Part shown: positions 1,006 to 20,903 of the stretch, one piece after another
Layout of the letters: each line of letters begins with the position of its first letter
How positions within the stretch are numbered: position 1 is the stretch's first letter
Assembly (NCBI GenBank): GCA_963837465.1
Contig: CAWINB010000004.1
Location: 10,853 to 74,852 of the forward strand
DNA: 64,000 nt
Reading direction: 5' to 3'
Source of the DNA: Candidatus Doudnabacteria bacterium
Lineage (GTDB): Bacteria > Patescibacteriota > Doudnabacteria > UBA920
Position numbers and translations under genes: made by a program
Notes under the pieces: generated by a model
Told to the model about the DNA's origin: nothing
What the model saw: only the letters and a program-made list of their open reading frames with translations
The model's database searches: none

Positions 1006-1014
1006 CCCGGGCGG

Positions 1015-4031: not shown

Positions 4032-5679
4032 ATGCCGATCCGCCGCCAAGGCGGGCTGAGAGGGGGAAGGGCATGCGAGAGCCGTGAAGGCCATCACCCC
4101 GGGACGGGCGAGTTCCGGAGAGCCCTCAGCCGCCGAACGGTCCTCAAGGGACTCACATACGGCGGAGTTTTGGCTGCAGGTGGAGGAGTGCTGTCCTCCT
4201 GCGGTGCCTCACATAGCTCGCCCCCCAAGCAGGAAGCCCGAAAGCCGAGGCGAGGTGGGGTCCTTCGCGTTGGCCTTACGGGTGGAACCTCATCGGACAC
4301 CCTTGATCCCGATAATACGATCAATAACGTCGACTTTGCTCGTGCGTTCAACGTCTTCAACAGCTTGGTCGAGCTGAATCTTGACGCGCAGCCGCAGCTT
4401 TCTCTCGCTGAGGAGGTGACACCGAACAGCTCAGCCACCGCATGGACGATCCGTGTGCTACCAGACGTCACGTGGCACAACGGAAAGAGCCTCGGTGCTG
4501 ACGATGTCATCTTCACGCTCCGGCGCATTGCGAATCCGAAGAGCCCTCTCGAGGGTGCCTCGCAGATTGCAGCGCTTGACCTCAGCAACATCGAGAAGCT
4601 CGATGCCCGGACCATCCGGATCCATTGTCACACGCCGTTCTCAACCTTCGCCGAGACGCTTGCGGGCAACTTCTTCTTCGTCGTCCCAGTCGGCTTTGAC
4701 GTGAAGCATCCAGTCGGGACTGGCCCCTTCAGATTTGGCACTTTCTCGCCTGGGGTGGAGAGCAGTTTTCCGAGATTCGAGAATTATCTGGCAGCGCTCG
4801 CTACCTTATGTTGACAGCCTCCTCATCACCGAGTACGCGAATGAGACGAGCCAACTCGACGCCCTGCAGAGCGGTCAAGAGGACGTGATTCGTCTCCTAT
4901 CGCCGTCCAGTATTACTTCTGCCAGAACAAATGGAGGACAGGTAGTTGTCTCGCGTGGCGAAGGGTGGAATCCGTTCACTATGCGGGTCGATGTGCCTCC
5001 CTTTCACGACAACCGGGTTCGTGAGGCCATGCGGCTGATCGTGAATCGGGAGGAGATGTTAGGGGCGGTCTTCAGTGGCTACGGCACACTGGGCAACGAT
5101 GTCTTTACGATCTTCGACTCAACCTACGACCACTCCCTGCCGCAACGTCACCAGGACATCCCGCGGGCGAAGGCGCTTCTCAAGGCGGCCGGGGCTGAGG
5201 GCCTGCACGTGCAGCTCGTCACTTCTGCGATCGCCCAAGGCGTGGTCCAGTCAGCTCAGGTGTTCGCTCAACAGGCGCAAGCGGCAGGAGTGACGGTGTC
5301 GCTGAATAATGTGACACCGACTGCCTTTTACGGAGCGAACTACCTGAAATGGACCTTTGCGCAGGATGACTGGGTGTACGTTCCTTACCTTGTCCAGGTG
5401 TCGCAGGCGACTCTCCCATCGGCTCCGTTCAACGAGTGCCATTTCGACGACCCGCAGTACAACTCGCTCTACCAGCAGGCGCTCGCCACCACCGATGACG
5501 CCAAGCGCACGGAGTTGATCCACGAGATGCAGGTCATCGACTACACGAGCGGCGGATACATCATTCCGTACTTCCCCCCCGTGATTGATGCGCACTCTCA
5601 GAAGGTGCAAGGCATCGAGACCTCGAGGACGGGGCTGCCGCTTTCGAACTACGGATTCAAGTCGATGTGGTTTGCGTGA
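4032..5679 (+). CDS. ABC transporter substrate-binding protein, family 5 (peptide/nickel type), Tat-lipoprotein signal; frameshift near 4790-4830
   Basis: RRTVLKG twin-arginine motif plus lipobox-like LSSCGAS. The two ORFs 4032..4814 and 4735..5679 together read as one SBP_bac_5-like protein (RVGLTGGTSSDTLDP ... YVPYLVQ ... IIPYFPP). Confidence 0.6.
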
Positions 5680-5689
5680 GCCATTGAGG

Positions 5690-6600
5690 CATAGCCCGGC
5701 GGCCGAACTGAATCCTCGAGAGGAGATCGAGCTCGACGGGGCATCGCTGTCCTTGGAGGGATTGGCCGCCGTCGTCAGTGGCGAAAGGTCGGCTGTGCTT
5801 GCCCCGCGGGCAACGGTGCGGATGCGGGCCGCGAGGAACGTCCTTGTGAAAGAGATGGAACGTGGAATCGCCGTGTATGGCACGACGACGGGAGTTGCCG
5901 AGCGCAAACGCGTGTCAGTCGACGGTCCCCGCCAATCGGCCTTCAATCGAAGGCTCATCTCGGGTCATCGCGTCGCTCAGGGGCCGCCAGCGTCGCCGTT
6001 AATCGTGCGGGCGGCGATGCTTTGCCTCGCGAACAGTCTCGCAAAAGGGATGTCGGGTGTCCGCCCTGAGATCGTGGAACTCTTTCTCGAAGCTCTAGAC
6101 GACGGGTTCGTGCCGCTGGTGGGCAGCCTCGGCTCTGTCGGCGAAGGGGACATCGGGCCGCTCGCCGACCTTGCTCATGGCCTGCTCGATCGCAGCGGGC
6201 TTGTTCTTGAAGCTGGCGAGGGACTCGCGCTCATGAATAGCAACGCCTTCTCCACGGGATGGTCGGCACTTGCGCTGCTCAGAGCCGAGAGGTTGCTCGA
6301 CTCAACGGACGTGGCTGCCGCAATGGATCTTGAGGCGTTCGCTGCGAATCTCAGCCCTTGGCACGACATCGTTGTGGCCTGTCGCTCCTCGCCGGGCATC
6401 GAGACGACGATCGGAACAGTTCGCCAGCTGCTCTCCGGAAGTGTCCTTTGGGAGCCCGGCGGGCGCGCAATCTGCAGGATCCCATGACATTCCGCTGCAT
6501 TCCTCAGGTGCATGGCGCAGCCGCGAAGCCCTCACCTACGCCCGGGCGATCGTCGAGGCGGAGATCAACGCAGTCCAAGGGAATCCGGTGGTGGTGGTCG
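5690..6600 (+). pseudogene. histidine/phenylalanine ammonia-lyase-like (aromatic amino acid lyase family), multiply frameshifted and truncated after about 300 aa
   Basis: IAVYGTTTGVAE, GSLGSVGEGDIGPLADLAH (position of the MIO-forming GSVGASGDLAPLAH), RCIPQVHGAA and AIVEAEINAVQGNPVVV lie in three different frames (ORFs 5585..6487, 6358..6828, 6270..6647). The C-terminal ~200 aa of a normal HAL are absent. Confidence 0.55.
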
Positions 6601-7054
6601 AGGAGCAATATTTTTGCCCTGGACAACGGGCAAATCCTGGAAATTAATTCCGCCAAGGAAGCGCGCGCCACGCAGGACAGCAAAATTGCCAGCGGCTATG
6701 TATTTATAGACGGCCTCGGCGTAGGCGATGTCGGCGAAGTCGTCATTCGCGACAGGCAGGTTATGGCCCAGGGACGGAATGTTCGTGATTATAATGACTT
6801 TGGAACGACGCAGCGGCAAGCTGGTTAACCAGCCGGATATAATTTCGCGGGGGTTTATTTACATGAAGGGTAACGACAAACTCATTCGCGAAGTCAAGCA
6901 CGAAGTGCGCAAGCTGGTGGAAAGCAAAGGCAAGGAAAAACTGGAACCCAACTACGCCTTCCTGCGCAACATCGTCCGCGACGAAATCGGCGAATATCTC
7001 TACCAAAAAACCGAAAGGCGTCCGATGGTGCTGCCGGTGGTAATTGAGGTTTAA
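6600..7054 (+). pseudogene. 3' fragment of an RNase J-like ribonuclease gene, frameshifted
   Basis: ILEINSAKEARATQDSKIASGYVFIDGLGVGDVGEVVIRDRQVMAQ ... PDIISRGFIYMKG ... TERRPMVLPVVIEV spans ORFs 6358..6828 and 6728..7054. This matches my recollection of the C-terminal region of RNase J. Only the last ~150 aa are present, with no upstream beta-lactamase domain. Confidence 0.45.
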
Positions 7055-7139: not shown

Positions 7140-7754
7140 ATGGGAGGAATTATGCAATATAGGGATTATAAAATTTTTAGGGCCGGCGAAATTTATCATA
7201 TTTACAATCGAGGCAACCATAAAGAACAGATATTCTTCGATGAACAGGATTATTTAAACTACATTAAACGTATAAAATTAGCACTGGGAAAAGGCTCCCT
7301 ATCCAATCTTAAGATCCGGCCATTTCCTGCAAATACTTTTAGTATCCTATGCTATTGTTTAATGCCTAACCATTTTCACTTAATGGTTAAACAAAATAGC
7401 GATATACCAATTAGCCAGCTTATCAGCAAAGTTTCCATCAGCTACGCAATGTATTTTAATAAAAGATACAATAAAGTTGGCAATATTTTTCAAGATGCCT
7501 TTAAGGCAAAGCTAATAGACAGTGATTCTTACCTGACTTATTTATCCGCCTATATTCATAACAATCCAGAAAATCCTCAAACTTACCCTTACTCAAGTTT
7601 TCCGGACCTTGCCGGAGATAGAAACGGAACAATATGCGATAAGTACTTATTATCCTTTTTTGAAAATAATAAGGAAACTTATAAAAAATTTATATTATCT
7701 TACAATAATTCTGACTATCAAAAGATTCAGCACCTGACTTTTGAAGAGGGCTAA
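7140..7754 (+). CDS. IS200/IS605-like HUH tyrosine transposase, REP-associated (RAYT)-like
   Basis: HUH motif CYCLMPNHFHLM and catalytic-Tyr region YLSAYIHNNP. About 200 aa, AT-rich relative to neighbours, flanked by related palindromes. Confidence 0.6.
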   Translation: MGGIMQYRDYKIFRAGEIYHIYNRGNHKEQIFFDEQDYLNYIKRIKLALGKGSLSNLKIRPFPANTFSILCYCLMPNHFHLMVKQNSDIPISQLISKVSISYAMYFNKRYNKVGNIFQDAFKAKLIDSDSYLTYLSAYIHNNPENPQTYPYSSFPDLAGDRNGTICDKYLLSFFENNKETYKKFILSYNNSDYQKIQHLTFEEG

Positions 7755-8833: not shown

Positions 8834-10218
8834 TTATTTTATGTGGTTAATTAAAGAAGTTACTTCGTCAATTTTTTGTTTCAGCAACTCGGCGCTGTCA
8901 GCCTCCACGTTTATACGCAACAGGTTTTGCGTATTGGAAGACCTTAAATTAAATCTCCAATTGGGATAGTTAAAATCATAACCATCTATGCTGTCTATTT
9001 GAGCATCGCTGTATTTGGATTTTACCGTTTCCAAAACATCCTGATTTTTAAACTCAAAATTTATTTCCTCGGAAATATAAAATTTTTCCCTAAGCGACTT
9101 TAAAACTTCTGAAAAAAGCTTGTCAGCGGCGGATAAAATTTCCAGCATGGCCAAAAACGGCATCAGTCCATTGTCCAGATAAAAATTATCCTTAAAATAA
9201 TAATGGCCGGAAGTCTCGCTGCCAAAAACTGCTCCTTCCTGAATCATCCGCTCTTTAATAAAAGAGTGCCCGGCTTTGGTCATTACCGCGATACCACCAT
9301 TTTGCTCAATAACATAATCTATAACCCGCACCACGCGCGTATCGTGCACAATTTTGCCGCCCGGATATTTTTTTAAATAATATTGCGAGAGCAAAGCATT
9401 AATATAAGCCGGGGTAACGAACTGGCCGTTTTCGTCAAAAAAGAAACAACGGTCGCCGTCGCCGTCCCAAGCCACCCCCAAATCCGGCTTCAGTTGCTTT
9501 ATGGACTCAATGGTTTCCGGCCGGTTGGTTGGCAGCAGAGGATCCGACGGTCCTTTGGGAAAATTTCCGTCCAAATGGCCATTCAAAACTTTTATAAATT
9601 CTATTGGCAACAAGGTTTTTAATTTTTCTATGGCCGGATTAGCCATACCAAAATTGGCATTGGCCACAACCTTAAAAGCCTTAAACTTGCTAACATCAAA
9701 AGTCTTAAGTACGTGCTTATAGTAAGCGTCTTTGATGTCCTGTTTTTGAGCCGCACCTTTTTTATTGGAAATTGGAAATTGGAAATTGGAAATTACCAAA
9801 TCTCTAATCTCATATATCCCGCTGTCCCCGGAAACGGGAGCCGATTTCTCCTTCACCAATTTTAAGCCGCCATATTGTTTGGGGTTATGGCTGGCCGTGG
9901 CCATAATGCCGCCATCCAGGTCCAGATGAACAACGCCAAAATACATTTGGTCCGTAGAAATTAAACCCAAATCCAACACATTCACCCCGGCATTGTAAGC
10001 CCGCGCTCGGCCGCGTCCCTGAATTCTTTCCCGCATAAGCGCATATCATGACCCACTGCAATGTTTAATTTTCGCATCGGCCCGTCTTTGAGATCATTCA
10101 TTTGCAATAACTTTACATAAGCCTGCGCAATCTTATAAACCAACTCGGCATTAATCTGCGTAGGATAAATTCCCCGGATGTCATAGGCTTTAAAAATTGA
10201 CTGATCTATTTGTTCCAT
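8834..10218 (-). CDS. phosphomannomutase/phosphoglucomutase (alpha-D-phosphohexomutase), frameshift near 10020-10040
   Basis: N-terminus (MEQIDQSIFKAYDIRGIYP ... IAVGHDMRL) is in ORF 9982..10218. The remainder (TASHNP phosphoserine loop, GDGDR metal loop) is in ORF 8834..10036. Confidence 0.75.
9764..9797. repeat. heptanucleotide tandem repeat (GGAAATT)x4.5 inside the phosphomannomutase CDS
   Basis: attggaaattggaaattggaaattggaaatt. On the coding strand it encodes ISNFQFPISN. The unit length is not a multiple of 3. Confidence 0.8.
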
Positions 10219-10974: not shown

Positions 10975-11745
10975 TTACTGGGCCAGGGTGAAGACCACCT
11001 GGATAGTGGTGGCGACCTGGACAGGTTGCTCGTTAAGAAGCGTAGGTTGGTAAACCCACTGCTTTACCGCATCAAGAGCGGCCTGGCGCAGCAATGGGTG
11101 CCCGCTGACAACCTTGAGCTCCTGGATGCGACCATCTTCGCCGATGATGGCCGATAGCTCCACCACTCCCGAAATCCGGGTGTTCCTGGCGAGCTGCGGG
11201 TAGACGGGATCCGGATGGCGAACCAGCTTGGCGTTCTGCACACGCCCGCCGACGGGGATAATGTTGGGTCGGGGTGGTTTTGGCGCCGGGGCTTTGGGGG
11301 GTGGAGGTGCTACGTTGACGCCACCGGAGCCGTTGCCGATTAGGCAGTCCAGGCATACGCCCGTTCCGCCGGATCCAGGTCCAGGGTTGCCGGGTCCGCC
11401 GTAAACTGCGGGCGGAACTTCGGCAATTTCCGCTACCGCGATCTTGGGGATCGCGCTTGGGAAAGCAAACTTTCTGATCGCAACCCTAGGAGCGGGTTGC
11501 GGGTTAGTAGTTTGCGGGGTCGCCGTCTTGCTAGCCGTTGCCGGCTGTTGCTTGGGCAATCTTACAACCACCTCAGCCGGCTGTACCAGCGTAGGCCGGG
11601 CCAGCTTAACCTCAAGCATGGCCGATTTTCCCTTGGTCGTAAAAACCAAGAGAGTGATGATGGCGGCTACAACAGGGACGCCAATCATCAAAGATTTTAA
11701 AGTTGGAGAGAGTCCTTGTCTCTTCTCCGTAAATTGCCCGAACAT
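10975..11745 (-). CDS. TonB-family protein (Pro-rich spacer plus TonB C-terminal domain)
   Basis: N-terminal TM helix, Pro/Ala-rich linker (PPPPKAPAPKPPRP). C-terminal PVYPQLARNTRISGVVELSAIIGEDGRIQELKVVSGHPLLRQAALDAVKQWVYQP is typical of TonB_C. Markedly higher GC than flanks. Confidence 0.65.
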   Translation of the reverse strand: MFGQFTEKRQGLSPTLKSLMIGVPVVAAIITLLVFTTKGKSAMLEVKLARPTLVQPAEVVVRLPKQQPATASKTATPQTTNPQPAPRVAIRKFAFPSAIPKIAVAEIAEVPPAVYGGPGNPGPGSGGTGVCLDCLIGNGSGGVNVAPPPPKAPAPKPPRPNIIPVGGRVQNAKLVRHPDPVYPQLARNTRISGVVELSAIIGEDGRIQELKVVSGHPLLRQAALDAVKQWVYQPTLLNEQPVQVATTIQVVFTLAQ

Positions 11746-11963: not shown

Positions 11964-12233
11964 TTATAAAGGCCGATAAATCCCCACGCTACGCCACTCT
12001 TGGCTAAACCCCGCATTTGCCTTATACTACTCACTAATCCCTAACCCCTAATTCATGTCCTTCCAAATCGGCATTGTATGAACACAACCCGACATTCGGT
12101 GCTGGACGAAAGTGTTAAGTTCATTCCATTTTCCTGTATAATAAAAATGCCGCCGTGGCAAAAGGCACGGGCTATAACGGCCCGTGACCGGTATGGCAAA
12201 ATTGTTCATTCATCTCCCATTCCCGCCTAAATT

Positions 12234-12938
12234 ATGGAAACCCAAAACGACCAACAACAAATTGACGCCGCCTACCAGTACCTCAAAGAACATAAACACG
12301 AATTGATCGAACGTTTTGCAGACCCTAAAATTTATAAGCCTGATAGCGAGCCAGTAACTCTATTTATGGCTGGTTCGCCCGGTGCGGGCAAAACCGAATC
12401 TTCCAAACGATTAATTGAGCTGTTTACTGGTAATCCTCCGGTGCGCATTGATGCCGACGACATCCGCAGTATCTTTCCCAATTATACTGGCTTCAATTCT
12501 CATATTTTTCAGCGTGCCTGCACTTTAGGAGTGAACTTACTTTTTAACCATGTCATGCATAATAATATTAACGCTATTTTGGATGGGACATTTGCTTACG
12601 AACGCGCTATGGAAAATATAGAGCGGTCGCTAAATCATAAGCGTGAAGTCATTATTTACTATTTGTTTCAAGACCCTAAAGTGGCTTGGGACTTTACCCA
12701 AATTCGCGAAGCCAAGGAAGGTCGCAGAGTTTCCAAAGAGGTTTTCATCAATGCTTTCCTGCGAGCCCGCGAAAATGTAAGCCAGGCCAAAGCCCACTAT
12801 GGCGATAAAATAATGCTTAACTTAATTATCAAAGATTTTACCAAAAATTTTGAGCAAGCCTACCCCAATGTCGGTCGTCTTGATAAGTATCTGCCAACAG
12901 TGTATACTAAAGAAAAACTGGAGAAATTACTATCATGA
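12234..12938 (+). CDS. zeta-toxin-like P-loop kinase (PezT/zeta family)
   Basis: Walker A MAGSPGAGKTES in the zeta-toxin arrangement. About 234 aa, typical of the family. Confidence 0.6.
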   Translation: METQNDQQQIDAAYQYLKEHKHELIERFADPKIYKPDSEPVTLFMAGSPGAGKTESSKRLIELFTGNPPVRIDADDIRSIFPNYTGFNSHIFQRACTLGVNLLFNHVMHNNINAILDGTFAYERAMENIERSLNHKREVIIYYLFQDPKVAWDFTQIREAKEGRRVSKEVFINAFLRARENVSQAKAHYGDKIMLNLIIKDFTKNFEQAYPNVGRLDKYLPTVYTKEKLEKLLS

Positions 12939-13120
12939 TGAAAAAATTTAAAGCGGTATTTAGCCCTCACAAAGAAGAGAAAAAGAATTTTTCCTCGTTT
13001 TTTAGACATGCCTCGCCGGAAGATCAAAAACGGCTGATGGAAGACGTTGCCCGCAAGGCTAACCAAGACCAAAGGGAACTGGTTGAAGCATATCACCAAG
13101 CAAACCAAAAGTTGATGTAA
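12935..13120 (+). CDS. small ORF translationally coupled (ATGATG overlap) to the zeta-toxin-like gene; possible cognate partner
   Basis: 61-aa ORF overlapping the toxin stop by 4 nt. Charged and helical (EDQKRLMEDVARKANQDQRELVEAYHQANQKL). Confidence 0.3.
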   Translation: MMKKFKAVFSPHKEEKKNFSSFFRHASPEDQKRLMEDVARKANQDQRELVEAYHQANQKLM

Positions 13121-13466
13121 AAAGCCGGTTTTTGTAACGACCCGGTATCAATTTTCGTCTTTATATTCAGGTCTCGGCGAAGGCCTGCCCTTTTTTGGCA
13201 GAGATTGGTTTAGCTAAGTTGGTATACCGACTTATTAAAATAGCCGAAGACCAGTCCGAATACAGACCGTATGGCTGGTGTCCGTGGCGTATCTACGGAA
13301 TAGGAACAGCCAACCTCTTATTACAATGTTGGATCACTAAGTCAAAAGACAGCTTAGGACAGAAAAACCGGAGAGTCCTCCAAGGACATCGCCGGTTTTT
13401 TTTGATATTTAAAGAAAACCGGCTTTAGTGAACCGTACCCTCTTTAGTGGACAGAGGATAAAACCG

Positions 13467-14033
13467 CTAAGTTTGTAAAGATAAAAGATGATTCCGGTAA
13501 TTAACCGGGGTCATCTTTTTTAAATCCCATTGTTGTCTCTCGTTGTTGTAGTATCGCACATATTCGGTGATTAGCATAAGAAGTTCTTCAAAAGTCTTGC
13601 AGTCCTGGTAGTCTACGTCGTCTTTTAAATGGCCAAAGAACGATTCCATTGGCGCATTGTCGATGCGCCGGCCTTTACGGGACATAGATTGTACCATGCC
13701 AAGGCTTTTTACCATATTAATATACTGCGGGCTGGTGTAGTGGAACCCCTGGTCAGAATGAATAATGGTTTTGGTAAGCGGCAGTCTGGCATTGGTCTTC
13801 ATCTGCTCTAAGCTGTCCATGACCACCTCCATGCCGATATGCCTGGACAAGTTCCAGCCCACGACCTCGCCGCTGGCAATGTCCTTAATGGCTGAAAAGT
13901 AGGCTAGGCGGTGATTGAAAGGCAGATAGGTGATGTCCGTACAGAAGACTCTGTAGGGCACAGATTGGGTAAAGTTCCTGTTCAGGATATTGGCAAAACT
14001 TTTGTGCCCCCTGGTCTTTTTCATAATAGCCAT
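13467..14033 (-). pseudogene. IS3-family transposase OrfB remnant (integrase-core/rve domain only)
   Basis: DDE-region signatures HSDQGFHYTS, NAPMESFFG, YYNNERQQ. The N-terminal ~100 aa and OrfA are missing. Confidence 0.6.
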
Positions 14034-14332
14034 TTGTGGAGCATTACTCTCGCTTGGTCAGAGAACTGTATGTTAAGCATATTCACGAAACCCCAACACG
14101 CCTAAAATGGATAATCAAGCTTATGGACGTAACCTCCCTAATAAACCTCACTTTCAGAAAACTGGCTATTGATAATAAGTGGAAAAAGCTCGAACCGATG
14201 ATACTCGACGAACAAACACTAAAAAACGTGGCACAAGTTACCGAGCGAACCAATTTTTTGAAAGGTTTCGCTCATAAGTAAAAAGTATTATAATTAAGAG
14301 GCTTAAAGCCTCTTTTTTATTTAAACCCCTCT

Positions 14333-15928
14333 ATGCCTAAGTCCGATAATTATTTGGAGAAAACCCAACAATGGCAACCACTGTTGGATGTTTTGATTAA
14401 AAATAAAGACCTGCAATGGAAAACAACCAGTGATATTAAGCAACTGGTTAAGTATATCGATAGTGAGTATGAGGCATTTTGCCACGAAGCCGAGGATTTA
14501 AAAGAAGCCTTGGTGATTTGTTTATTCCCTACCGATGGCTATATAAACAGAGATTTTCAAAATGAAAACGTTTGGAGATTTTTGGCCAGTTTATACGTGC
14601 AAAAAATTATCACCGACTTGCATTTACCAATTTATATCAAAAGAAAAAATCAGCAAATGGTTGAAGTCCAAGGGCTGCCGGTTTATTTTGACCCAAACAG
14701 TGCTTTAAAGGAAGCTATAACAAATCCGGAAAAATTTAAAAGGTCTTTTGTTCGCTTTAAAATTCCAGACTGGAATAAGTTTGAAAAAATAAGAGACAAA
14801 GTTTACGCTGACAAACAAACTTTGGTTTTGGAGAACAAAACGGGTGAACCAGTAGTAATACAGCCTACGGATTTAGATTTGGCATTGGCGTATTTAAAAC
14901 CTTCCGTATTAAAATCAAGACACTCCGGCGAGTGGGTTTTTGGAGACATTGAGTTAGGAGCTGTTAGCGATGGGTTAGAAGGAGAAGAAACCAAAAAAAT
15001 GTTATGTGTGGCTGATTTCCTAAAATCGGAAAGAGTTATTGATAGCTATCAGGTTATAGAAAGAGAAGACACTATAATTTATAAAAATAAAAACAAGGAT
15101 ACGTCGGAGCCAATTCCTTTCGTTGGCTATGTTGCCCGCTGCAAGTTCAAACCAAGCGAAGCTTTAGAATTTATGAAGCAGCATTGGCACCCAACGCACC
15201 TAAAAATCAAACAGATTGCTGATTTATATTTAAAGCTAATTAAGGTTGTAGAGGCTTATTTTAAACAACCCGAACCAGATGTGCAGCTCAATGCTTACTA
15301 TGTTCAAATTGATACTCAAATCAAAGATTTATTGACTGGCGACCTACCGCCACGACTGCGGCTGGATTACGATAAGCCTTTTGCTGACCTACTCTCAGCC
15401 CACAAGCAAATAGAGCAGACAAAAACAACGCTGCAAAGTCACCTCAATTCTGTATATGCTTTCTATGGCGTTTTGCAGGACTTTTTAAATTTTTATAATC
15501 TAAACCCTGAATTAGCTAAGGTAGAAGGGCTGGAAGATTACCTGTCAGACTTAAATGCAAAACAGGAAGAACCAAAATTTTTGCCAAGTCCACAAGAAAC
15601 CCAACCAAGAACTGAAAGTCCAAAAAAGGCAGTTTTTATATCCACTGACTACGGTATTTATTTGAATAAGGCCACCATAAAGCCTAACTATGCCATTAAA
15701 GGAAAGCGGGCAAAATTGCTCTGGCTGCTAAAAGATGGCCGGAAACTTACAGGTAAATTTATGGCGGAAACTTTGGGTCAAACCTTACCTTTGGTAAGTA
15801 AGGAACTGGAAGCTGTAAATACAAATTTTAAAGAAATTTTAAAACTGCAAGATGACTTGGTTATTCGTGTGGACACTGGCGGGCATCGTTTGAACAAGGA
15901 ATTATTTGAAGTTAAATTTTTAGAATAA
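14333..15928 (+). CDS. hypothetical 531-aa protein with C-terminal winged-helix-like region
   Basis: Long intact ORF in a low-GC mobile island. No recognisable catalytic motif. C-terminus KRAKLLWLLKDGRKLTGKFMAETLGQTLPLVSKELEA looks HTH-like. Confidence 0.4.
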   Translation: MPKSDNYLEKTQQWQPLLDVLIKNKDLQWKTTSDIKQLVKYIDSEYEAFCHEAEDLKEALVICLFPTDGYINRDFQNENVWRFLASLYVQKIITDLHLPIYIKRKNQQMVEVQGLPVYFDPNSALKEAITNPEKFKRSFVRFKIPDWNKFEKIRDKVYADKQTLVLENKTGEPVVIQPTDLDLALAYLKPSVLKSRHSGEWVFGDIELGAVSDGLEGEETKKMLCVADFLKSERVIDSYQVIEREDTIIYKNKNKDTSEPIPFVGYVARCKFKPSEALEFMKQHWHPTHLKIKQIADLYLKLIKVVEAYFKQPEPDVQLNAYYVQIDTQIKDLLTGDLPPRLRLDYDKPFADLLSAHKQIEQTKTTLQSHLNSVYAFYGVLQDFLNFYNLNPELAKVEGLEDYLSDLNAKQEEPKFLPSPQETQPRTESPKKAVFISTDYGIYLNKATIKPNYAIKGKRAKLLWLLKDGRKLTGKFMAETLGQTLPLVSKELEAVNTNFKEILKLQDDLVIRVDTGGHRLNKELFEVKFLE

Positions 15929-15968
15929 CTTGTAGTTGACTTCCTGTTGTTGTTAATAAGTTTTAACT

Positions 15969-15992
15969 AAACGGCTCAAATGAGCCGTTTTA
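15969..15992 (+). terminator. hairpin AAACGGCTCA-aat-GAGCCGTTT
   Basis: Perfect stem directly after the 531-aa ORF, followed by T-rich sequence. Confidence 0.55.
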
Positions 15993-16160
15993 ATTTTGTC
16001 CAAGGTTAAGCAAGTGCTAATTACAGGTATTTTCCATTTCTCCTATGCTTAGAGTAGGAAGAGTTAATCAGGCTGCTGCCTTGGAATTAGGTTCAACTCA
16101 TAGAGGGGTTTTCCTAAAACTTGGGCAGCGACCTGATTACCTCTAAACTTTAACTCCTCT

Positions 16161-16580
16161 ATGGCCAGCAGATACAATACCAGACTAATACGTAAGCGTC
16201 GCACCTATACCACTAAAGAGATAGCGGCATTGTTTGGTATGCATATACGCAGCGTTTTGCAGTGGGTGGCAAAACAAGGCCTGTCACCCATAGAGGGTAG
16301 TTCCAATCCCTATTTATTCTACGGGGAAGTATTATACGATTTTTTGACCAAAAAGAAACAAAAACGCAAATGTTCATTGCTTAAAGATGAATTTTATTGC
16401 CTTAAGTGCAAGTGCGGCAGAAAAGGACTGGCTACTGAATTTTCCATAAACAAAACCGAAACCAAGATTGGAAGCAAGGGAAAATTTAAGGCCATTAAAA
16501 TTAGCAGGTGCGAAGTATGCGGCATAAAACTTTACCGGTTTGCAACGTATCAGAAGGAAGTGCCGGATAGGATTAACTGA
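16161..16580 (+). CDS. HTH DNA-binding protein with C-terminal Cys4 zinc-ribbon
   Basis: TTKEIAALFGMHIRSVLQWV (MerR/Xis-like HTH), then CLKCKC...CEVCG. Confidence 0.45.
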   Translation: MASRYNTRLIRKRRTYTTKEIAALFGMHIRSVLQWVAKQGLSPIEGSSNPYLFYGEVLYDFLTKKKQKRKCSLLKDEFYCLKCKCGRKGLATEFSINKTETKIGSKGKFKAIKISRCEVCGIKLYRFATYQKEVPDRIN

Positions 16581-16625
16581 CGATTATTACCCTCTCTTAA
16601 ACATTCACTTAAACGCTACAAAAAT

Positions 16626-17726
16626 ATGACAAAAATCAATCTCAAAAATGAACAAATAAAACGCAAGTATTTTGACTGGCTCAAGGAAGCCGATGGCCTT
16701 TCTGACAGTAGTATTGAAAAAGTGGAGCGGTCAATTGCATTATGGGACGACTTTACCCACGCTGCCGACTACAAAACCTTTAACCCCGAAACTGTTAAGG
16801 GCTTTAAGAAATGGTTGTTTGAACGCAAAAATGCTGCCACAAACCAGCCAATTACCCTAACCACCTGCCACCATTACCTTATAAGCCTTAATGAATTTTT
16901 TAAGTGGCTGGCGGCGCAGGCTGGCTATAAGTCTAAGATTTCCCTAAACGACGTTGCCTATTTGCAGCTTGATAAAAAGCAAACCAAAATCGCATTAAAT
17001 CCTACACGGAAACGCTACCCAACTTTGGCAATAATCGAAAGGCTGGTTAATTCCATTGAAGTAAAAACCGAGGTAGACCGACGGGACAGGGCACTAATTT
17101 GTTTTACCTTACTTTCCGCAATGCGGGACGAAGCTATTTCAACCCTACCGCTGGGCTGCCTTAACGTAGAAAAACAGCAAGTTCACCAAGACCCTGAACG
17201 TGGGGTAAAGACTAAATTTTCTAAGGATATTTTAACCACGCTGTTTATTTTTGACCCTACCTTTTGGGAAATTATAAAAGACTGGGTTGATTACCTGAAA
17301 AAAGAAAAGCTATTTACTGACCAAGACCCTATATTCCCTGCTACAAAAAATGAGCAGGAAGGCGGCGACAGTAGCTCATTTATTGCCGACAATGTTGAGC
17401 GGCGATTTTGGAAAACCACTGGCGGTATTCGGGCAGTGTTCAAAAAGCGTTTTGAAGCTGCGGGCTTGGAATACTTTTCGCCGCACTCGTTCCGCCATTC
17501 GGCAACCAAAATAGCATTAGAACTTTGCAAAACTCCAGCGGAATTTAAGGCAGTAAGCCAGAACTTAGGCCACGAAAATATGGCTACCACAATGTTTGAT
17601 TATGCTGCCCTACCAGATGAAGAAGTCGAAAAGAAAGTTAAAAGTATAGGGCAAGCCGACCAAGACACGCAGCAGGCCGACATTGTTCAGCGACTACTTA
17701 GGGATTATAAAATAACTCCTAAATAA
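16626..17726 (+). CDS. tyrosine site-specific recombinase / phage-type integrase
   Basis: C-terminal catalytic region HSFRHSATKIALE and LGHENMATTMFDYA (R..H..R..Y pattern). Confidence 0.7.
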   Translation: MTKINLKNEQIKRKYFDWLKEADGLSDSSIEKVERSIALWDDFTHAADYKTFNPETVKGFKKWLFERKNAATNQPITLTTCHHYLISLNEFFKWLAAQAGYKSKISLNDVAYLQLDKKQTKIALNPTRKRYPTLAIIERLVNSIEVKTEVDRRDRALICFTLLSAMRDEAISTLPLGCLNVEKQQVHQDPERGVKTKFSKDILTTLFIFDPTFWEIIKDWVDYLKKEKLFTDQDPIFPATKNEQEGGDSSSFIADNVERRFWKTTGGIRAVFKKRFEAAGLEYFSPHSFRHSATKIALELCKTPAEFKAVSQNLGHENMATTMFDYAALPDEEVEKKVKSIGQADQDTQQADIVQRLLRDYKITPK

Positions 17727-17734
17727 TTTTTGTT

Positions 17735-17971
17735 ATGCAGCCAAACTACCAAGAATTAACCAAATTGTCACAGATAGACCTTCCACAATTAGCGGATGGC
17801 CAAATTCTTGGATTGGCTAAAAAGGCAAAGACTAAAAGTAACGAACCGAGCTTAACATACCAGCTGACCAACGAACCGAACCAGTCCCAAATTGATAAAG
17901 CCTTTGATATTTTATTTGAGGAAACTTTAAAGAAAAACGGCGATTTGACATCTTATGACAATTTGGTATAA
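17735..17971 (+). CDS. hypothetical small protein
   Basis: 78-aa ORF immediately after the integrase. Confidence 0.25.
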   Translation: MQPNYQELTKLSQIDLPQLADGQILGLAKKAKTKSNEPSLTYQLTNEPNQSQIDKAFDILFEETLKKNGDLTSYDNLV

Positions 17972-17978
17972 TGGACTT

Positions 17979-18158
17979 ATGGAATTTTACACATTGGAAG
18001 AAGTAGCAAAAGAGCTTAGGGTTAACCCCCGCACCATAATGCGCTGGCTTAAAAGTGGCCAGTTGAAAGGTTATAAACTTGGCAATAGCCAGACGTCATT
18101 ACTCCGTATCCCAAAGGCCGAGGTTAATAAATTTTTAGCAAAACATAAAATTAAATGA
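17979..18158 (+). CDS. excisionase-family / MerR-like HTH DNA-binding protein
   Basis: MEFYTLEEVAKELRVNPRTIMRWLKSGQLKGYKLG matches the Xis/AlpA-type HTH pattern. Confidence 0.55.
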   Translation: MEFYTLEEVAKELRVNPRTIMRWLKSGQLKGYKLGNSQTSLLRIPKAEVNKFLAKHKIK

Positions 18159-19780
18159 ACGACCTAACAGACAAACAATTCAAGCTGATTGCCACCTATG
18201 CCCGTGTGTCCAAAAATCAGGACGAGCAAGAGCAGACAATAAAAAACCAGTCTATGGTTTTTACGGAATTGGCAGGTAAAAATAACTGGCAGATAGTGGA
18301 GGAGTATAAAGACGACGATTGGAGCGGCGATATTTTAGAACGACCTGCACTTGATAGGCTACGGCTTGATGCAAAAAATAAAAACCGAGCTTGGGAAGCG
18401 GTGCTTATTTATGACCCTGACCGTTTGGCTCGTCGCTATTCGTATCAAGAGCTTGTGATGGATGAGTTGCGGGAAGCAGGGGTTGAAGTAATGTTTGTTA
18501 CTGTTTCCGCTCCAAAAAACAGTGAAGATAAAATTTTGCACGGCGTGAGAGGATTGTTTGCTGAATATGAAAGAGCAAAAATAGCAGAAAGATTTAGACT
18601 TGGCAAACTTCGCAAAGTCAAAGAAGGTCACATTTTAACTACCGAAGCCCCCTATGGCTATCGCTACATTCGTAACAATAAAGAAACCAAACAGCACGGC
18701 TATTATGTAATTGAAGAGGAAGAAGCTAAAGTTGTTAAAATGATTTTCTCTTGGGTTGCCAATCACGGACTAACTTTGAGGACGATCGTAAGGAAACTTC
18801 AAGACATGGGACTTAAGCCGCGCAAAAGCAAGCGCGGGGTCTGGAGTACCAGCACTTTGAGCACTCTATTGCGGGCCCGCGTATATATCGGGGAGGCGCA
18901 TTGGGGTAGCTCGTATGCGGTTGTGCCGGAAAATCCACTCAATAAGGAAAAATATAAAAAGATGAAAAAGTCCAGCCGCAGAAAAAGGCCCATGGAAGAA
19001 TGGATAACCATACCTGTTCCTGCTATAATAGACTTTGAACTATTTGAGAAAGCCGGAAGACAGCTAAAAACAAACTTTGCGCTTTGCCAACGCAATAAGA
19101 AAAAAGAATACCTTTTATCAGGAATACTTGAATGCGCTTGCGGCAGGACACGAGTTGGTGAAGGATATTGCAACAAACCAAATTTATACTACCGTTGCAC
19201 CGACCGAGTTTCGAGCTTCCCTCTACCGCCCAAGTGTGCGGAAAAAGGCATTAATGCCAGAATATCCGATGATCTGGTTTGGCAAAAAATTGCCGAGCTC
19301 ATGAGTTCAGAAGAACTTATGTCCGAACAAGTAAACCGTTGGTTTAACAGCAGGCAGGACAAAAGCAAGGCAACCTTAGTTGATACGGGAAACTTAAAAA
19401 AAGAAGTTGAAAAATTACGGGCCCAAGTAGAGCGCTATAATAAAGGCTATGGCGCTGGAGCTTTTACCCTGGAAGAGCTTAAAAATTATACGACCCCAAT
19501 TCGAGATAGAATCAGCCAACTGGAAATACAGATTGCCAATTCCACCAATGAAGCTAACCAAATCAGATTAGAAGCGCCGACCCAGATAGAAATAGCGGAC
19601 TTCGCCAAAAAAGCAAAAGAGACCCTGCAAGATTTAAAATTTGCAGCCAAGCGGGCTATTGCGCTAAACGTCGTAGAAAAAGTTATCGGCACGAGGGAGC
19701 ATTTACAAGTAATCGGAAATATTCCAATCAATCAAAATGTCGGGTTCTTCTCATTCAATCGGCATCGTCGGTTTGCCTAA
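18155..19780 (+). CDS. large serine recombinase (resolvase/integrase family) no. 1
   Basis: N-terminal resolvase domain with catalytic Ser in ATYARVSKNQDEQ. Central recombinase domain. Zinc ribbon CACGRT...YYRC. C-terminal coiled-coil. The last 44 nt overlap the ychF start. Confidence 0.75.
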   Translation: MNDLTDKQFKLIATYARVSKNQDEQEQTIKNQSMVFTELAGKNNWQIVEEYKDDDWSGDILERPALDRLRLDAKNKNRAWEAVLIYDPDRLARRYSYQELVMDELREAGVEVMFVTVSAPKNSEDKILHGVRGLFAEYERAKIAERFRLGKLRKVKEGHILTTEAPYGYRYIRNNKETKQHGYYVIEEEEAKVVKMIFSWVANHGLTLRTIVRKLQDMGLKPRKSKRGVWSTSTLSTLLRARVYIGEAHWGSSYAVVPENPLNKEKYKKMKKSSRRKRPMEEWITIPVPAIIDFELFEKAGRQLKTNFALCQRNKKKEYLLSGILECACGRTRVGEGYCNKPNLYYRCTDRVSSFPLPPKCAEKGINARISDDLVWQKIAELMSSEELMSEQVNRWFNSRQDKSKATLVDTGNLKKEVEKLRAQVERYNKGYGAGAFTLEELKNYTTPIRDRISQLEIQIANSTNEANQIRLEAPTQIEIADFAKKAKETLQDLKFAAKRAIALNVVEKVIGTREHLQVIGNIPINQNVGFFSFNRHRRFA

Positions 19781-20903
19781 TGTCGGCAAGTCAACATTGT
19801 TTAATGCTATTACCAAAAGCAAGGTTGAAGCGGCTAATTATCCGTTCGCGACTATTGACCCCAATGTGGGGGTAGTCGCGGTTCCCGATGATCGTTTGGC
19901 AAAACTTGCGGCGCTGGAAAAGAGCGAAAAAGTTGTGCCAACCACGATTGAATTTGTGGATATTGCCGGCTTGGTTAAAGGCGCGTCCACGGGCGAAGGT
20001 TTGGGCAATAAATTTTTAAGCCACATCCGCGAAGTCGACGCCATTATGGAAGTCACGCGTTTTTTTGAAAGCAAAGATATTATTCATGTTAACGGTAACG
20101 TAGACCCACAGCGCGATATGGAAACCATAGGCATAGAACTGCAGCTGGCCGATTTACAGAACGTGGAAAACAGATTGGCAACAGTAGCGCGGCAGGCCAA
20201 AAGCGGCGACCGTGAAATGACTATTAAAAAAACTGTCCTTGATAAATATAAAACGGCGCTGGAAGCCGGGCAAATGGCCAACACCGTACGGTTAACCGAC
20301 GAGGAAAAAGACAACGCCAAAGACATCCAACTTCTTACTACCAAGCCGTTTTTATTTGTGGCCAATTCCAAATTTGATTTGGATAAAAAGCAGTTTGTGT
20401 CTGCCATCCCGGAATTTTTGAGTGCATCCGAAAAAATATCCGGGACCCAGGACAAAGAGGATACTGGATCCCGGCTCTCGGGTGCACTCGGCCGGGATGA
20501 CACAACCATGATTACCATTGACGCTCAACTGGAATCGGAGCTTTCCGAGTTAAACGACGACGAACACGCGGAGTATCTTAAAGAATTGGGGTTGCCCCAA
20601 AGCGGCCTGGATAAAATTATAAAAAAAGCTTATGAGACTTTGGGTCTGATAACTTTTATTACAGCCGGACCCAAAGAAAGCAAAGCCTGGACCTGCAAAG
20701 CCGGCACTAAAGCGCCGCAGGCGGCGGGCGTAATCCATACCGATTTTGAAAAAGGTTTCATTCGCGCGGAATGCATCCAGTGGGACAAACTTTTGGAAGC
20801 CGGCGGCTATCCCGAAGCCAGAAACAAAGGCTGGCTAAGGACAGAAGGCAAAAACTATACAATAGAAGATGGTGATGTAGTCCATTTCCTATTCAACATT
20901 TAA
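19737..20903 (+). CDS. ychF: ribosome-binding ATPase YchF
   Basis: G1 motif IGIVGLPNVGKSTLFNA. C-terminal TGS-like region GLITFITAGPKESKAWT...GKNYTIEDGDVVHFLFN. Confidence 0.85.
   Translation: MSGSSHSIGIVGLPNVGKSTLFNAITKSKVEAANYPFATIDPNVGVVAVPDDRLAKLAALEKSEKVVPTTIEFVDIAGLVKGASTGEGLGNKFLSHIREVDAIMEVTRFFESKDIIHVNGNVDPQRDMETIGIELQLADLQNVENRLATVARQAKSGDREMTIKKTVLDKYKTALEAGQMANTVRLTDEEKDNAKDIQLLTTKPFLFVANSKFDLDKKQFVSAIPEFLSASEKISGTQDKEDTGSRLSGALGRDDTTMITIDAQLESELSELNDDEHAEYLKELGLPQSGLDKIIKKAYETLGLITFITAGPKESKAWTCKAGTKAPQAAGVIHTDFEKGFIRAECIQWDKLLEAGGYPEARNKGWLRTEGKNYTIEDGDVVHFLFNI

What the first reader, a model, noticed from the sequence alone, without database searches (positions are those of the whole stretch)
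13140..19780. Mobile island with IS3 remnant, 531-aa unknown protein, tyrosine integrase, Xis-like HTH and a large serine recombinase ending inside ychF
Between the zeta-like gene and ychF there is a lower-GC block. It holds a truncated IS3 OrfB, an intact 531-aa protein of unknown function with a winged-helix-like C-terminus, an HTH/zinc-ribbon protein, a tyrosine integrase, an excisionase-like HTH protein and a 541-aa large serine recombinase. The recombinase's final 44 nt overlap the ychF start codon region. Two different recombinase classes in tandem and a recombinase 3' end fused to the 5' end of an essential GTPase gene suggest nested or serial integrations. An att site probably lies within about 19700-19790, and the element may supply the ychF start.
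Basis: partly seen in the sequence, partly recalled or inferred. Interest (0 to 1): 0.6.

Follow-up and report, generated by a model that had tools for sequence, protein, structure and literature searches.

The report
Recombinase island that rewrites ychF's start
A 7.7-kb mobile element has inserted inside the first codons of the conserved GTPase gene ychF, giving ychF a new start while cutting about 50 conserved residues off its own recombinase, and relatives do the same in many ultra-small (CPR-like) bacteria.

Summary
It spans window 12070-19762 (7,691 bp), so it includes the zeta-toxin-like gene.

- **Integration site:** a large serine recombinase (LSR) inserted it at a GG dinucleotide in the Ile-Gly codons of ychF.
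- **Left end (attL):** the orphaned native ychF start (ATGTCCTTCCAAATCGG, MSFQIG) sits at 12055.
- **Right end (attR):** the element supplies a new start and leader (MSGSSHS-IGIVG).
- **Comparative support:** five relatives have the empty site. About 58 metagenomic LSR homologues (52-80% identity) sit at the same spot with the same 7-residue leader.
- **Split recombinase:** attP lies inside the LSR reading frame. Integration removes a conserved tail of about 50 aa (NTTRH...IPFxFxIKLPPP), which is left at 12072-12230. All 58 ychF-adjacent LSRs lack this tail. Of 19 without ychF, 16 keep it in one piece, including a 733-bp contig with a contiguous attP.
- **Second recombinase:** the tyrosine recombinase and its HTH/zinc-ribbon partner are a recurrent module of the family, not a nested element. 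Only the IS3 fragment is a secondary insertion.
- **531-aa protein:** it stays uncharacterised. It has a confident predicted fold, a winged-helix C-terminus and no significant structural match.

This is a new variant of a known kind.

The parts
12040..12096 (+). attL. It holds the host B arm with the orphaned native ychF start (ATG at 12055; remnant ORF MSFQIGIV* at 12055-12081), the crossover GG at 12070-12071, and the element P' arm (CATTGTATGAACACAACCCGACATT, 12072-12096).
   Evidence: Sequence read. The pattern search gave a unique hit. The P' arm is the inverted partner of 19736-19759 (repeat I2). The reconstructed attB is colinear with five empty sites.
12072..12230 (+). Detached 3' end of the LSR gene. 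It is the conserved C-terminal tail (HCMNTTRHSVLDESVKFIPFSCIIKMPPWQKARAITARDRYGKIVHSSPIPA) and is in frame with the LSR only across the excised attP junction.
   Evidence: The frame stays open and the motif is conserved in 9 of 9 reconstructed junctions. The tail is contiguous with the LSR in loci that lack ychF and in L163. pS is 0.81 against pN 0.26.
12234..12938 (+). Cargo: zeta-toxin-family P-loop kinase. After integration it lies directly downstream of the displaced native ychF promoter region.
   Evidence: PF06414, E = 2e-33. A promoter-like site lies at 12000-12028. No epsilon-type antitoxin was recognised.
12935..13120 (+). 61-aa ORF that overlaps the zeta gene stop by 4 nt. No family match; possible partner protein.
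   Evidence: no hits.
13467..14033 (-). Truncated IS3-family transposase (C-terminal rve half only). It is a secondary insertion remnant found in no related element.
   Evidence: NF033516 positions 195-369 of 369, E = 3e-58. It forms a singleton cluster among 82 loci.
14333..15928 (+). 531-aa protein of unknown function. It is modular: N-terminal region, a confident middle domain (about 165-410) and a C-terminal winged helix (about 430-531).
   Evidence: Only one full-length homologue in 5.8 billion proteins (P0002, 43%). 289 partial relatives in the representative search. AF2 pLDDT 77 overall, above 90 for residues 165-410 and 430-531. No Foldseek hit at E <= 1e-3 in PDB or BFVD; only winged-helix-level partial matches.
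16060..16144 (+). Conserved long imperfect hairpin or palindrome upstream of the HTH/zinc-ribbon and tyrosine-recombinase operon. Its role is unknown (leader RNA, operator or recombinase site).
   Evidence: Conserved in window, L085, L090 and L081. The consensus fold has 32 pairs, 5 of them with compensatory changes.
16161..16580 (+). 139-aa protein with a weak HTH_17 match and a CxxC...CxxC zinc ribbon. It is the fixed partner of the tyrosine recombinase.
   Evidence: Cluster C6 lies next to C4 in 12 loci.
16626..17726 (+). Tyrosine recombinase (Xer/integrase-like), 366 aa, apparently intact.
   Evidence: PF00589, E = 4e-12. Xer-type NCBIfam hits. Same length in L085 and L090. Mutually exclusive with primase modules.
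17735..17971 (+). 78-aa small protein (cluster C1; C-terminal motif DKAFDILFEE). It is the most constant neighbour of this LSR clade and a candidate recombination directionality factor.
   Evidence: Found in 49 loci, including the LSRs not at ychF. No family match.
17945..17972 (+). Perfect sigma-70 consensus promoter (TTGACA, 16 nt, TG-n-TATAAT) with a TGACA direct repeat in the spacer. It ends 6 nt before the HTH start, so it probably gives a leaderless HTH-LSR(-ychF) transcript.
   Evidence: 12 of 12 match. Conserved at the same position in about 29 distinct loci.
17979..18158 (+). Excisionase-family HTH_17 protein (cluster C2). It is a candidate regulator or directionality factor.
   Evidence: PF12728, E = 1e-13. 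TIGR01764 at 42 bits against a cut-off of 28.8. 81% identical in L005.
18155..19780 (+). Large serine recombinase in its integrated (truncated) form, 541 aa. The last 6 codons (RHRRFA*) are an out-of-frame read of ychF.
   Evidence: Pfam. PHROG 95 integrase, E = 5e-86. Compared with the excised form.
19736..19795 (+). attR. It holds the element P arm (AATGTCGGGTTCTTCTCATTCAATC, 19736-19760), the crossover GG at 19761-19762, and the host B' arm (CATCGTCGGTTTGCCTAATGTCGGCAAG), which encodes the P-loop.
19737..20903 (+). ychF. Codons 1-8 (MSGSSHSI) are element DNA; host DNA starts at the GG of Gly9.
   Evidence: Empty sites begin MSFQIGIVG. All 58 occupied sites begin MS[GSH]S..[ST]-IGIVG.

Best explanation
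The region 12070-19762 is one small integrative element of 7,691 bp.

**How it integrated.** Its large serine recombinase inserted it into the 5' end of ychF, at a GG dinucleotide in the Ile-Gly codons just before the P-loop. The attP site lies inside the recombinase's own reading frame, about 50 codons before its stop. Integration therefore swaps gene ends in both directions.

- ychF loses its native start (MSFQ, left at attL) and gains an element-encoded start and 7-residue leader.
- The P-arm DNA does three jobs: it is the recombinase binding site, it codes LSR residues, and it codes the new ychF N-terminus.
- The recombinase loses a conserved tail of about 50 aa, which is stranded 7.7 kb away at attL. 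The protein ends instead in a few out-of-frame ychF codons.

**How ychF is expressed afterwards (inferred).** It is probably co-transcribed with the HTH and LSR genes from a conserved consensus promoter at 17945-17972.

**How it leaves (inferred).** Excision is presumably helped by the small C1 protein and/or the HTH_17 protein. It would restore both the full-length recombinase and native ychF.

**Other contents.** The rest is cargo or maintenance:
- a zeta-toxin-like kinase, now behind the old ychF promoter;
- an IS3 remnant;
- the unknown 531-aa DNA-binding protein;
- a tyrosine recombinase module that, in this family, replaces the primase/replicase module.

**Shown and inferred.** Shown: the boundaries, crossover position, empty and occupied sites, split recombinase gene, selection on the tail, and the existence of unintegrated forms. 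Inferred: the transcription pattern, which protein sets directionality, what the tail does, and whether this particular copy can still move.
For: **Boundaries and sites**
- The native ychF 5' end sits at 12055, followed by a P' arm that is the inverted partner of the sequence at the ychF start.
- The reconstructed attB is colinear with empty sites in L001-L004 and L006, which start MSFQ/MSFK-IGIVG and have no recombinase upstream.
- Synteny (PMM ... ychF-rpsF-ssb) is kept in L001. L005 shows the PMM-ychF part.
- The crossover is narrowed to GG by intersecting the identical attL/attR cores of L085, L092, L093 and L144.

**Family**
- 58 loci have an LSR homologue overlapping ychF, each with the same element-borne leader.
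- Nine complete elements of 7.0-11.4 kb share the same att architecture but carry different cargo.

**Split recombinase**
- In 9 of 9 reconstructed attP junctions the frame stays open and encodes the conserved NTTRH...IPFxFxIKLPPP tail.
- All 58 ychF-adjacent LSRs lack the tail. Of 19 without a detected ychF, 15 pass the motif test. L135 also has an IPF motif. L109 and L123 end at contig ends with ychF-type out-of-frame tails.
- In the tail block, pS is 0.81 against pN 0.26.
- L163 carries a contiguous attP plus tail. It is nearly identical to the window's reconstruction.

**Expression**
- A conserved consensus promoter lies upstream of the HTH-LSR genes.
Against: - No read-level or experimental evidence shows that this particular copy excises.
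- No contig could be shown to be circular.
- This copy carries an IS3 remnant.
- Its tail departs from the family consensus at four positions of the most conserved motif: IPFSCIIKMPPW against IPFSFTIKLPPP. It may therefore be decaying.
- The Zn-ribbon domain of the LSR scores just below Pfam's cut-off.
- Promoter and terminator calls are consensus matches only.
- Host taxonomy of the metagenomic loci is inferred only from ychF similarity to labelled MAGs.
Confidence: 0.88

Rival explanations
1. Nested or serial integrations. The block holding the 531-aa protein, the HTH/zinc-ribbon protein and the tyrosine integrase would be a separate element that inserted into, or next to, an LSR element.
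For: - Two complete Xis-like/integrase pairs sit in tandem.
- The 531-aa protein, the HTH protein and the start of a further gene, in the position the tyrosine integrase has in the window, recur together on an unrelated-looking contig, L081.
- An IS3 fragment shows that secondary insertions did happen here.
Against: - The HTH/zinc-ribbon and tyrosine recombinase pair lies in the same order, immediately upstream of C1-C2-LSR-ychF, in about 13 loci whose LSRs range from 54 to 80% identity.
- It never co-occurs with the primase/replicase genes that fill that slot in 19 other elements: 0 of 28 have both.
- No direct repeats flank the block.
Confidence: 0.08
2. The island was formed as described but is now an immobile, decaying fossil. 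ychF would be permanently dependent on element sequences for its start and promoter.
For: - A truncated IS3 lies inside the island.
- The tail motif has four substitutions at otherwise conserved positions compared with the close relative P0151.
- No excised form of exactly this element was found.
Against: - The ORFs for the LSR, the tyrosine recombinase, the HTH protein and C1 are full length.
- Both att arms are intact. The P' arm is identical to that of the unintegrated relative L163 over 32 nt.
- The tail reading frame is still open.
Confidence: 0.3
3. There is no island. LSR-ychF would be an ancestral operon with a domesticated recombinase.
For: The adjacency is seen in 58 loci from diverse hosts.
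Against: - Empty sites exist in the closest relatives.
- The orphaned native start lies at attL in nine loci.
- Cargo differs between elements.
- Unintegrated attP forms exist.
Confidence: 0.01
4. It is a prophage remnant or a conjugative element rather than a small plasmid-like or mobilisable island.
For: The LSR, the excisionase and the integrase match phage families in PHROGs.
Against: - No structural, packaging, lysis, relaxase or type IV secretion genes occur in the window's element or in nine complete relatives of 7-11 kb.
- The LSR has no relative in 2.9 million viral contigs.
Confidence: 0.04

Closest known systems
Large-serine-recombinase integrative elements that insert within genes (SPbeta in spsM, skin in sigK, A118 in comK, SCCmec Ccr at the rlmH 3' end). 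Recalled from general knowledge; Ccr and XisF also came up as NCBIfam hits.
   Same: - The recombinase has the same three-domain build.
- The att sites are short, with inverted arms around a non-palindromic central dinucleotide.
- The integrase gene sits at the element edge.
- The target lies inside a host gene.
   Different: - The target gene is not inactivated; it is repaired at its 5' end, not its 3' end.
- attP lies inside the recombinase ORF, so the enzyme itself is truncated on integration.
- The nearest characterised LSRs are at most 33% identical.
Pipolins of Actinomycetota that use LSRs to integrate at ychF (PMC11551731).
   Same: ychF is the target of an LSR-borne, self-replicating, cargo- or defence-carrying small element.
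   Different: - No piPolB, the hallmark of pipolins, was recognised among the element genes screened here.
- The hosts are CPR-like.
- That paper gives no detail on a 5'-codon swap or a split recombinase in the passages read.
Integration-dependent immunity of mycobacteriophages such as BPs and Brujita (PMC3694055).
   Same: attP lies inside a coding sequence, so the viral and prophage forms of a protein differ at the C-terminus. The integration state is thereby written into a protein.
   Different: - There the split gene is the repressor, the integrase is a tyrosine recombinase, and the removed piece is a short degradation tag.
- Here the split gene is the serine recombinase itself, and the removed piece is a conserved 45-50-aa segment of unknown role.
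Pneumococcal defective prophage between dnaN and ychF (PMC6375853).
   Same: A mobile element with its integrase gene next to ychF changes ychF expression according to whether it is integrated or excised.
   Different: - That element integrates in the promoter region, with a 14-bp repeat, and lowers ychF expression.
- It does not replace coding sequence.
phiRv1, an LSR with a Xis-family directionality factor (cited in PMC3694055).
   Same: An excisionase-family HTH protein is encoded next to a large serine recombinase.
   Different: The role of the HTH_17 protein here is untested. The small C1 protein is the more constant partner of this LSR clade.

Membership tests
Large serine recombinase (serine integrase) | N-terminal resolvase catalytic domain with the nucleophilic serine | tested here: met
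   PF00239, E = 4e-28. The YARVS motif is at residues 15-19 of the translation. The region aligns to the TP901-1 integrase catalytic domain.
Large serine recombinase (serine integrase) | Recombinase domain plus a zinc-ribbon domain with an embedded coiled coil | tested here: met
   PF07508, E = 8.5e-21. PF13408 scores 23.6 bits, just under the 25.3 cut-off, but also matches in L005. Coiled-coil-type hits at 375-482 in the L005 LSR.
Large serine recombinase (serine integrase) | attP and attB are short sites with imperfect inverted arms around a 2-bp non-palindromic crossover, with no long direct repeats | tested here: met
   The attP arms AATGTCGGGTT.../...AACCCGACATT are symmetric about GG. 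In L085 the only identity shared by attL and attR is GG.
Large serine recombinase (serine integrase) | Catalyses attP x attB integration, with excision dependent on a directionality factor | not testable with these tools
   Needs a recombination assay.
Tyrosine recombinase | Phage_integrase catalytic domain with the HxxR and C-terminal Tyr signature | tested here: met
   PF00589, E = 4e-12. HSFRH and ...GHENMATTMFDY are visible in the translation. The target site is unknown.
Zeta/PezT toxin of an epsilon-zeta toxin-antitoxin pair | Zeta_toxin P-loop kinase domain | tested here: met
   PF06414, E = 2e-33, with the Walker A motif GSPGAGKT.
Zeta/PezT toxin of an epsilon-zeta toxin-antitoxin pair | Cognate epsilon/PezA antitoxin encoded immediately upstream | tested here: not met
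   No antitoxin family hit. The only small neighbour is a downstream 61-aa ORF with no match. The gene is therefore called zeta-like, not a proven toxin-antitoxin system.
IS3 insertion sequence | Complete OrfA-OrfB transposase with terminal inverted repeats | tested here: not met
   Only model positions 195-369 of 369 are present. It is a remnant.
Pipolin | Primer-independent family-B DNA polymerase (piPolB) | tested here: not met
   No polymerase B domain was found in the window's island proteins or in those family proteins that were screened against Pfam.
Prophage, ICE or IME | Virion or packaging genes, or a relaxase/T4SS/oriT | tested here: not met
   None appears in Pfam, PHROGs or NCBIfam scans of the window's island. 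The LSR is absent from viral contigs.

The most novel reading that the evidence does not exclude
The integration state of the element is encoded in the recombinase protein itself. The free element makes a full-length 588-aa enzyme whose conserved C-terminal tail tunes activity or directionality, for example by enabling attP x attB synapsis or blocking attL x attR. Integration deletes the tail and yields a 541-aa enzyme with different behaviour, either latent or excision-competent with C1 or the HTH protein. This would be a natural, self-resetting directionality latch for a serine integrase. It would be paired with a target half-site in the near-universal P-loop coding sequence of YchF/OLA1.
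Probability: 0.3. Interest if true: 0.8.

Novelty: new variant of a known kind. Interest (0 to 1): 0.62.

Why it matters
- **A described element family for CPR bacteria.** It defines a widespread family of small integrative elements in CPR/Patescibacteria-like bacteria that I did not find described in the papers searched. The mobile elements of these bacteria are poorly known. The description includes exact att sites, the crossover dinucleotide, a core gene set and interchangeable modules.
- **Safe use of a conserved gene.** An element can use a conserved gene as a landing site without harming it, by carrying a replacement start and leader inside its own recombinase binding site.
- **A split serine integrase.** A serine integrase gene is split by its own attP, so the integrated and free forms of the enzyme differ by a conserved segment that is under selection. 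This makes a directionality or regulation question directly testable with two defined protein forms and four defined sites. It may interest people who engineer serine integrases.
- **Possible resistance cargo.** Sister elements carry an Erm-type 23S rRNA methyltransferase and an APH(4)-like kinase. This hints at mobile resistance genes in Saccharibacteria.

Tried and rejected
- **tRNA and Rfam scans:** nothing near the island, so it has no tRNA target.
- **Generic repeat search:** it listed the attP arm pair only as one of 13 chance-level inverted repeats. The pair became meaningful only after comparison with empty sites.
- **AF2 of the 531-aa protein with 2 sequences:** useless, pLDDT 44. With 71 remote relatives the model was good, but Foldseek against PDB and BFVD gave nothing at E <= 1e-3.
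- **Pfam on 71 relatives of the 531-aa protein:** no consistent family.
- **hhalign to positional analogues in other elements:** weak or insignificant.
- **LSR search in viral contigs:** no relatives.
- **Terminal-overlap test for circular contigs:** negative for all 23 contigs tested.
- **PDB sequence search with the full-length LSR:** it matched only catalytic domains, so it says nothing about the tail.
- **Invertible-segment idea:** I considered and rejected that the inverted repeat 12073-12096/19736-19759 marks an invertible segment. It is the two arms of one attP.

Full report
**Observation**

| Feature | Coordinates | Evidence |
|---|---|---|
| Zeta-toxin-family kinase | 12234-12938 | PF06414 |
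| IS3 transposase fragment | 13467-14033 (-) | only positions 195-369 of the 369-position model |
| 531-aa ORF | 14333-15928 | no family hit |
| HTH/CxxC protein (139 aa) | 16161-16580 | weak HTH_17 |
| Tyrosine recombinase | 16626-17726 | PF00589 |
| 78-aa ORF | 17735-17971 | no family hit |
| Excisionase-family HTH_17 protein | real start probably 17979 | PF12728, TIGR01764 |
| Large serine recombinase (LSR), 541 aa | 18155-19780 | Resolvase, Recombinase, borderline Zn ribbon |

The LSR's last 44 nt overlap ychF (19737-20903). No tRNA or Rfam family lies nearby. The GC dip is modest.

**Boundaries**

I fetched ychF relatives from reference genomes. In the five closest genomes without a recombinase upstream (L001-L004, L006), ychF starts ATG-AGC/TCA-TTT-CAA-ATC-GGC-ATC-GTC-GG, which is MSFQIGIVG or MSFKIGIVG. 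The window's ychF starts MSGSSHS-IGIVG instead.

The missing native start is in the window at 12055-12077: ATGTCCTTCCAAATCGGCATTGT, encoding MSFQIGIV followed by a stop. This is 7.7 kb upstream, just before the zeta gene. It is followed by ATGAACACAACCCGACATT, the inverted partner of AATGTCGGGTTCTTCTCAT at the ychF start (repeat I2).

Joining the left half of attL to the right half of attR gives a sequence colinear with the empty sites. AATCGGCAT occurs only at these two places in the 64 kb. The island is therefore 12070-19762 (7,691 bp), and it includes the zeta gene.

**A family, not a one-off**

- L005, a Saccharibacteria MAG, has a 74%-identical LSR in the same position, with a ychF start MSGSKQT-IGIVG. 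Its own attL (ATGTCATTTCAAATCGG...) lies 7,057 bp upstream, and its cargo is different.
- A metagenome scan with the LSR returned 80 loci at 52-80% identity.
- With L005 and the window itself, 58 loci in all have ychF overlapping the LSR 3' end. In each, ychF carries a 5-7-residue element-borne leader, MS[GSH]S..[ST], before IGIVGLPNVGKST.
- Nine elements have both ends within the fetched DNA and measure 7.0-11.4 kb.
- The crossover can be pinned down by intersecting the sequence shared by attL and attR. The shared sequence is TCGG in L092, GGCAT in L093 and L144, and only GG in L085. The crossover dinucleotide is therefore GG. It is non-palindromic, as serine integrases require.
- Consensus half-sites:
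  - P arm: ATGTCgagTtca...CTa.C.ATC
  - P' arm: cATgG...GAACACAAcccGACAT
  - B' arm: the P-loop coding sequence aATcGT.GG.cTgCC.AAtGT.GG.AAaTC
- Host ychF genes are most similar to Saccharibacteria, Taylorbacteria and unclassified MAGs. This is only a rough guide to taxonomy.

**The recombinase gene spans attP**

I joined the LSR frame at attR to the DNA after attL. In all nine complete elements the frame stays open for 30-50 more codons. These encode a conserved tail: (N)RH-G-x-N-T-T-R-H, then 5-10 residues, then K-[LF]-I-P-F-x-F-x-I-K-L-P-P-P. In the window this tail is 12072-12230, which includes the 50-aa ORF 12078-12230.

- The first 9 or so codons coincide with the P' arm, so DNA-site constraint could explain their conservation.
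- The IPF block lies more than 45 nt past the crossover. It shows near-saturated synonymous change with low non-synonymous change: pooled pS 0.81 against pN 0.26, and L005 against L085 gives 0.50 against 0.00. That is selection at the protein level.
- All 58 ychF-adjacent LSRs lack the tail and end in a short out-of-frame read of ychF (..RNRR.A*).
- Nineteen complete LSRs have no detected ychF. Fifteen of them carry the tail by the motif test, and a sixteenth (L135) has the IPF motif.
- Two more (L109, L123) end at contig ends with ychF-type out-of-frame tails. Only L137 is unexplained.
- A search with the C-terminal 169 aa of the reconstructed enzyme found P0151, on a 733-bp contig (L163). 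There the P arm, GG, the P' arm and the tail are contiguous and almost identical to the window's reconstruction.
- L147 and L148 are further CPR-type copies in attP form.

Integration therefore truncates the recombinase from 588 to 541 aa, and unintegrated forms exist.

**Expression**

A perfect TTGACA-16-TGnTATAAT promoter lies at 17945-17972 and ends 6 nt before the HTH protein's conserved MEF start. The same promoter recurs at the same distance in about 29 distinct loci. Its spacer holds a TGACA direct repeat that looks like an operator.

I infer a leaderless HTH-LSR transcript that reads into ychF in the integrated state. A weaker promoter-like site at 12000-12028, presumably the native ychF promoter, now points at the 8-codon ychF remnant and the zeta gene. 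These are consensus matches, not measurements.

**Modules**

I clustered the ORFs of 82 loci.

- **Core next to attR:** C1 (the 78-aa protein, 49 loci), C2 (HTH_17, 42 loci) and the LSR. C1 also accompanies the LSRs that are not at ychF, so it is at least as good a candidate for the directionality factor as the HTH protein.
- **Slot upstream of the core:** it holds one of two things.
  - A replication module: Prim-Pol-PriCT-AAA_25, a DnaG-type zinc ribbon, a Toprim primase or an unknown 388-aa protein.
  - The HTH/zinc-ribbon plus tyrosine recombinase pair.
- **Counts among 28 elements:** 19 have a replicase, 5 have the tyrosine recombinase, 4 have neither and none has both.
- **What this implies:** the second recombinase is a recurrent alternative module, not a nested element. 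Its role is unknown (multimer resolution, a second target, or maintenance of the circle).
- **Possible site:** a conserved 85-nt hairpin precedes the tyrosine recombinase operon and may be its site or a leader.
- **Cargo elsewhere:** restriction-modification genes, membrane proteins, and, in L005 and L085, two possible resistance genes. One is an Erm-type 23S rRNA methyltransferase scoring above NCBIfam's equivalog cut-off. The other is an APH(4)-like kinase.

**The 531-aa protein**

- Only one full-length homologue exists in 5.8 billion proteins. It is again followed by the HTH/zinc-ribbon gene.
- A profile search of 1.8 billion representatives found 289 partial relatives that share one of three regions. 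Most often this is the C-terminal 100 or so residues.
- With 71 of these, AF2 gives a confident middle domain and a C-terminal three-helix-plus-hairpin winged helix.
- Foldseek finds nothing significant in PDB or BFVD. The best partial matches are winged-helix DNA-binding domains.
- I take it to be a DNA-binding protein of unknown role, either a regulator or an initiator. It is not a housekeeping family.

**Comparison with what is known**

- ychF has been reported as an LSR target for Actinomycetota pipolins (PMC11551731).
- A pneumococcal defective prophage in the ychF promoter region modulates ychF expression (PMC6375853).
- attP inside a coding sequence, so that the free and integrated forms of a protein differ, is the basis of integration-dependent immunity in mycobacteriophages. 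There the split gene is the repressor and the integrase is a tyrosine recombinase (PMC3694055).
- Fusing a directionality factor to the C-terminus of a serine integrase can control its direction (cited in PMC11722253). A natural C-terminal switch is therefore mechanistically plausible.
- The papers found in five literature searches did not turn up two things: a serine integrase split by its own attP, or this CPR element family.
- The closest LSRs in sequenced phages and plasmids are at most 33% identical.

**Verdict and caveats**

This is a real, well-delimited LSR island.

Whether this copy is still mobile is open. It carries an IS3 remnant, and its tail has four substitutions in the conserved motif, but all the recombination genes and both att arms are intact. 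The function of the tail is inferred, not shown.

Noticed in passing
window 1-6900: This stretch is 57-73% GC in a genome that is otherwise about 36-55%. It encodes fragments typical of other phyla: a frameshifted SBP_bac_5, a truncated aromatic amino-acid lyase, TetR, a nitroreductase and an SDR. It is either foreign DNA in decay or an assembly chimera.
   Followed up: partly
window 7140-7754: An IS200-like Y1 transposase (PF01797) sits at the junction between the high-GC block and the native TrpRS gene.
   Followed up: no
window 10975-11745 (-): A proline-rich protein with a TonB C-terminal domain lies in a 62% GC patch immediately upstream of attL. This is odd for a CPR-like bacterium and has no counterpart in L001. 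The ychF upstream region seems to collect foreign DNA.
   Followed up: no
window 8834-10218 (-): The phosphomannomutase gene appears split into a 400-aa and a 78-aa ORF, whereas it is a single 463-475-aa gene in L001 and L005. This is a frameshift or a sequencing error.
   Followed up: no
L005 3141-4965; L085 2683-4585: Sister elements at the same ychF site carry two possible resistance genes. One is an Erm-type 23S rRNA methyltransferase (NF000499, 250 bits against a cut-off of 212). The other is an APH(4)-Ia-like phosphotransferase. These may be mobile antibiotic-resistance genes in Saccharibacteria.
   Followed up: partly
window 16060-16144: An 85-nt imperfect hairpin upstream of the HTH/zinc-ribbon and tyrosine recombinase operon is conserved in four loci, with some compensatory changes. 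Its function is unknown.
   Followed up: partly
window 14315-14335 and 16099-16119: A 21-nt inverted repeat (86% complementary) brackets the 531-aa gene. Its right arm lies inside the conserved hairpin. The motif CCTCTATG also forms the start context of both the 531-aa and 139-aa genes.
   Followed up: no
L115-L117, L122, L125, L126, L133, L135, L139, L156: These loci carry LSR relatives at 54-60% identity with the tail. A few (L139 and, in the same group, L118 and L131) also show an intact palindromic attP-like site. They sit inside long contigs, up to 689 kb, next to an XRE-like gene, a conserved 160-170-aa gene and a TrwB-like coupling protein. They may be another host group or a larger element that carries the LSR unintegrated.
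   Followed up: partly
window 17950-17966 and the same position in about 29 loci: A direct repeat TGACA-N6-TGACAAT lies inside the spacer of the conserved promoter and looks like an operator.
   Followed up: no
window 13121-13466 and 14034-14332: These non-coding stretches flank the IS3 fragment and contain three terminator-like hairpins (13168-13187, 13185-13201, 14296-14314). Their ORFs are probably spurious. They may be leftovers of the IS ends.
   Followed up: no
L142, L144: In these loci the out-of-frame read of the LSR into ychF meets no early stop. The integrated LSR is therefore 652 aa, with a junk extension of about 110 aa.
   Followed up: no
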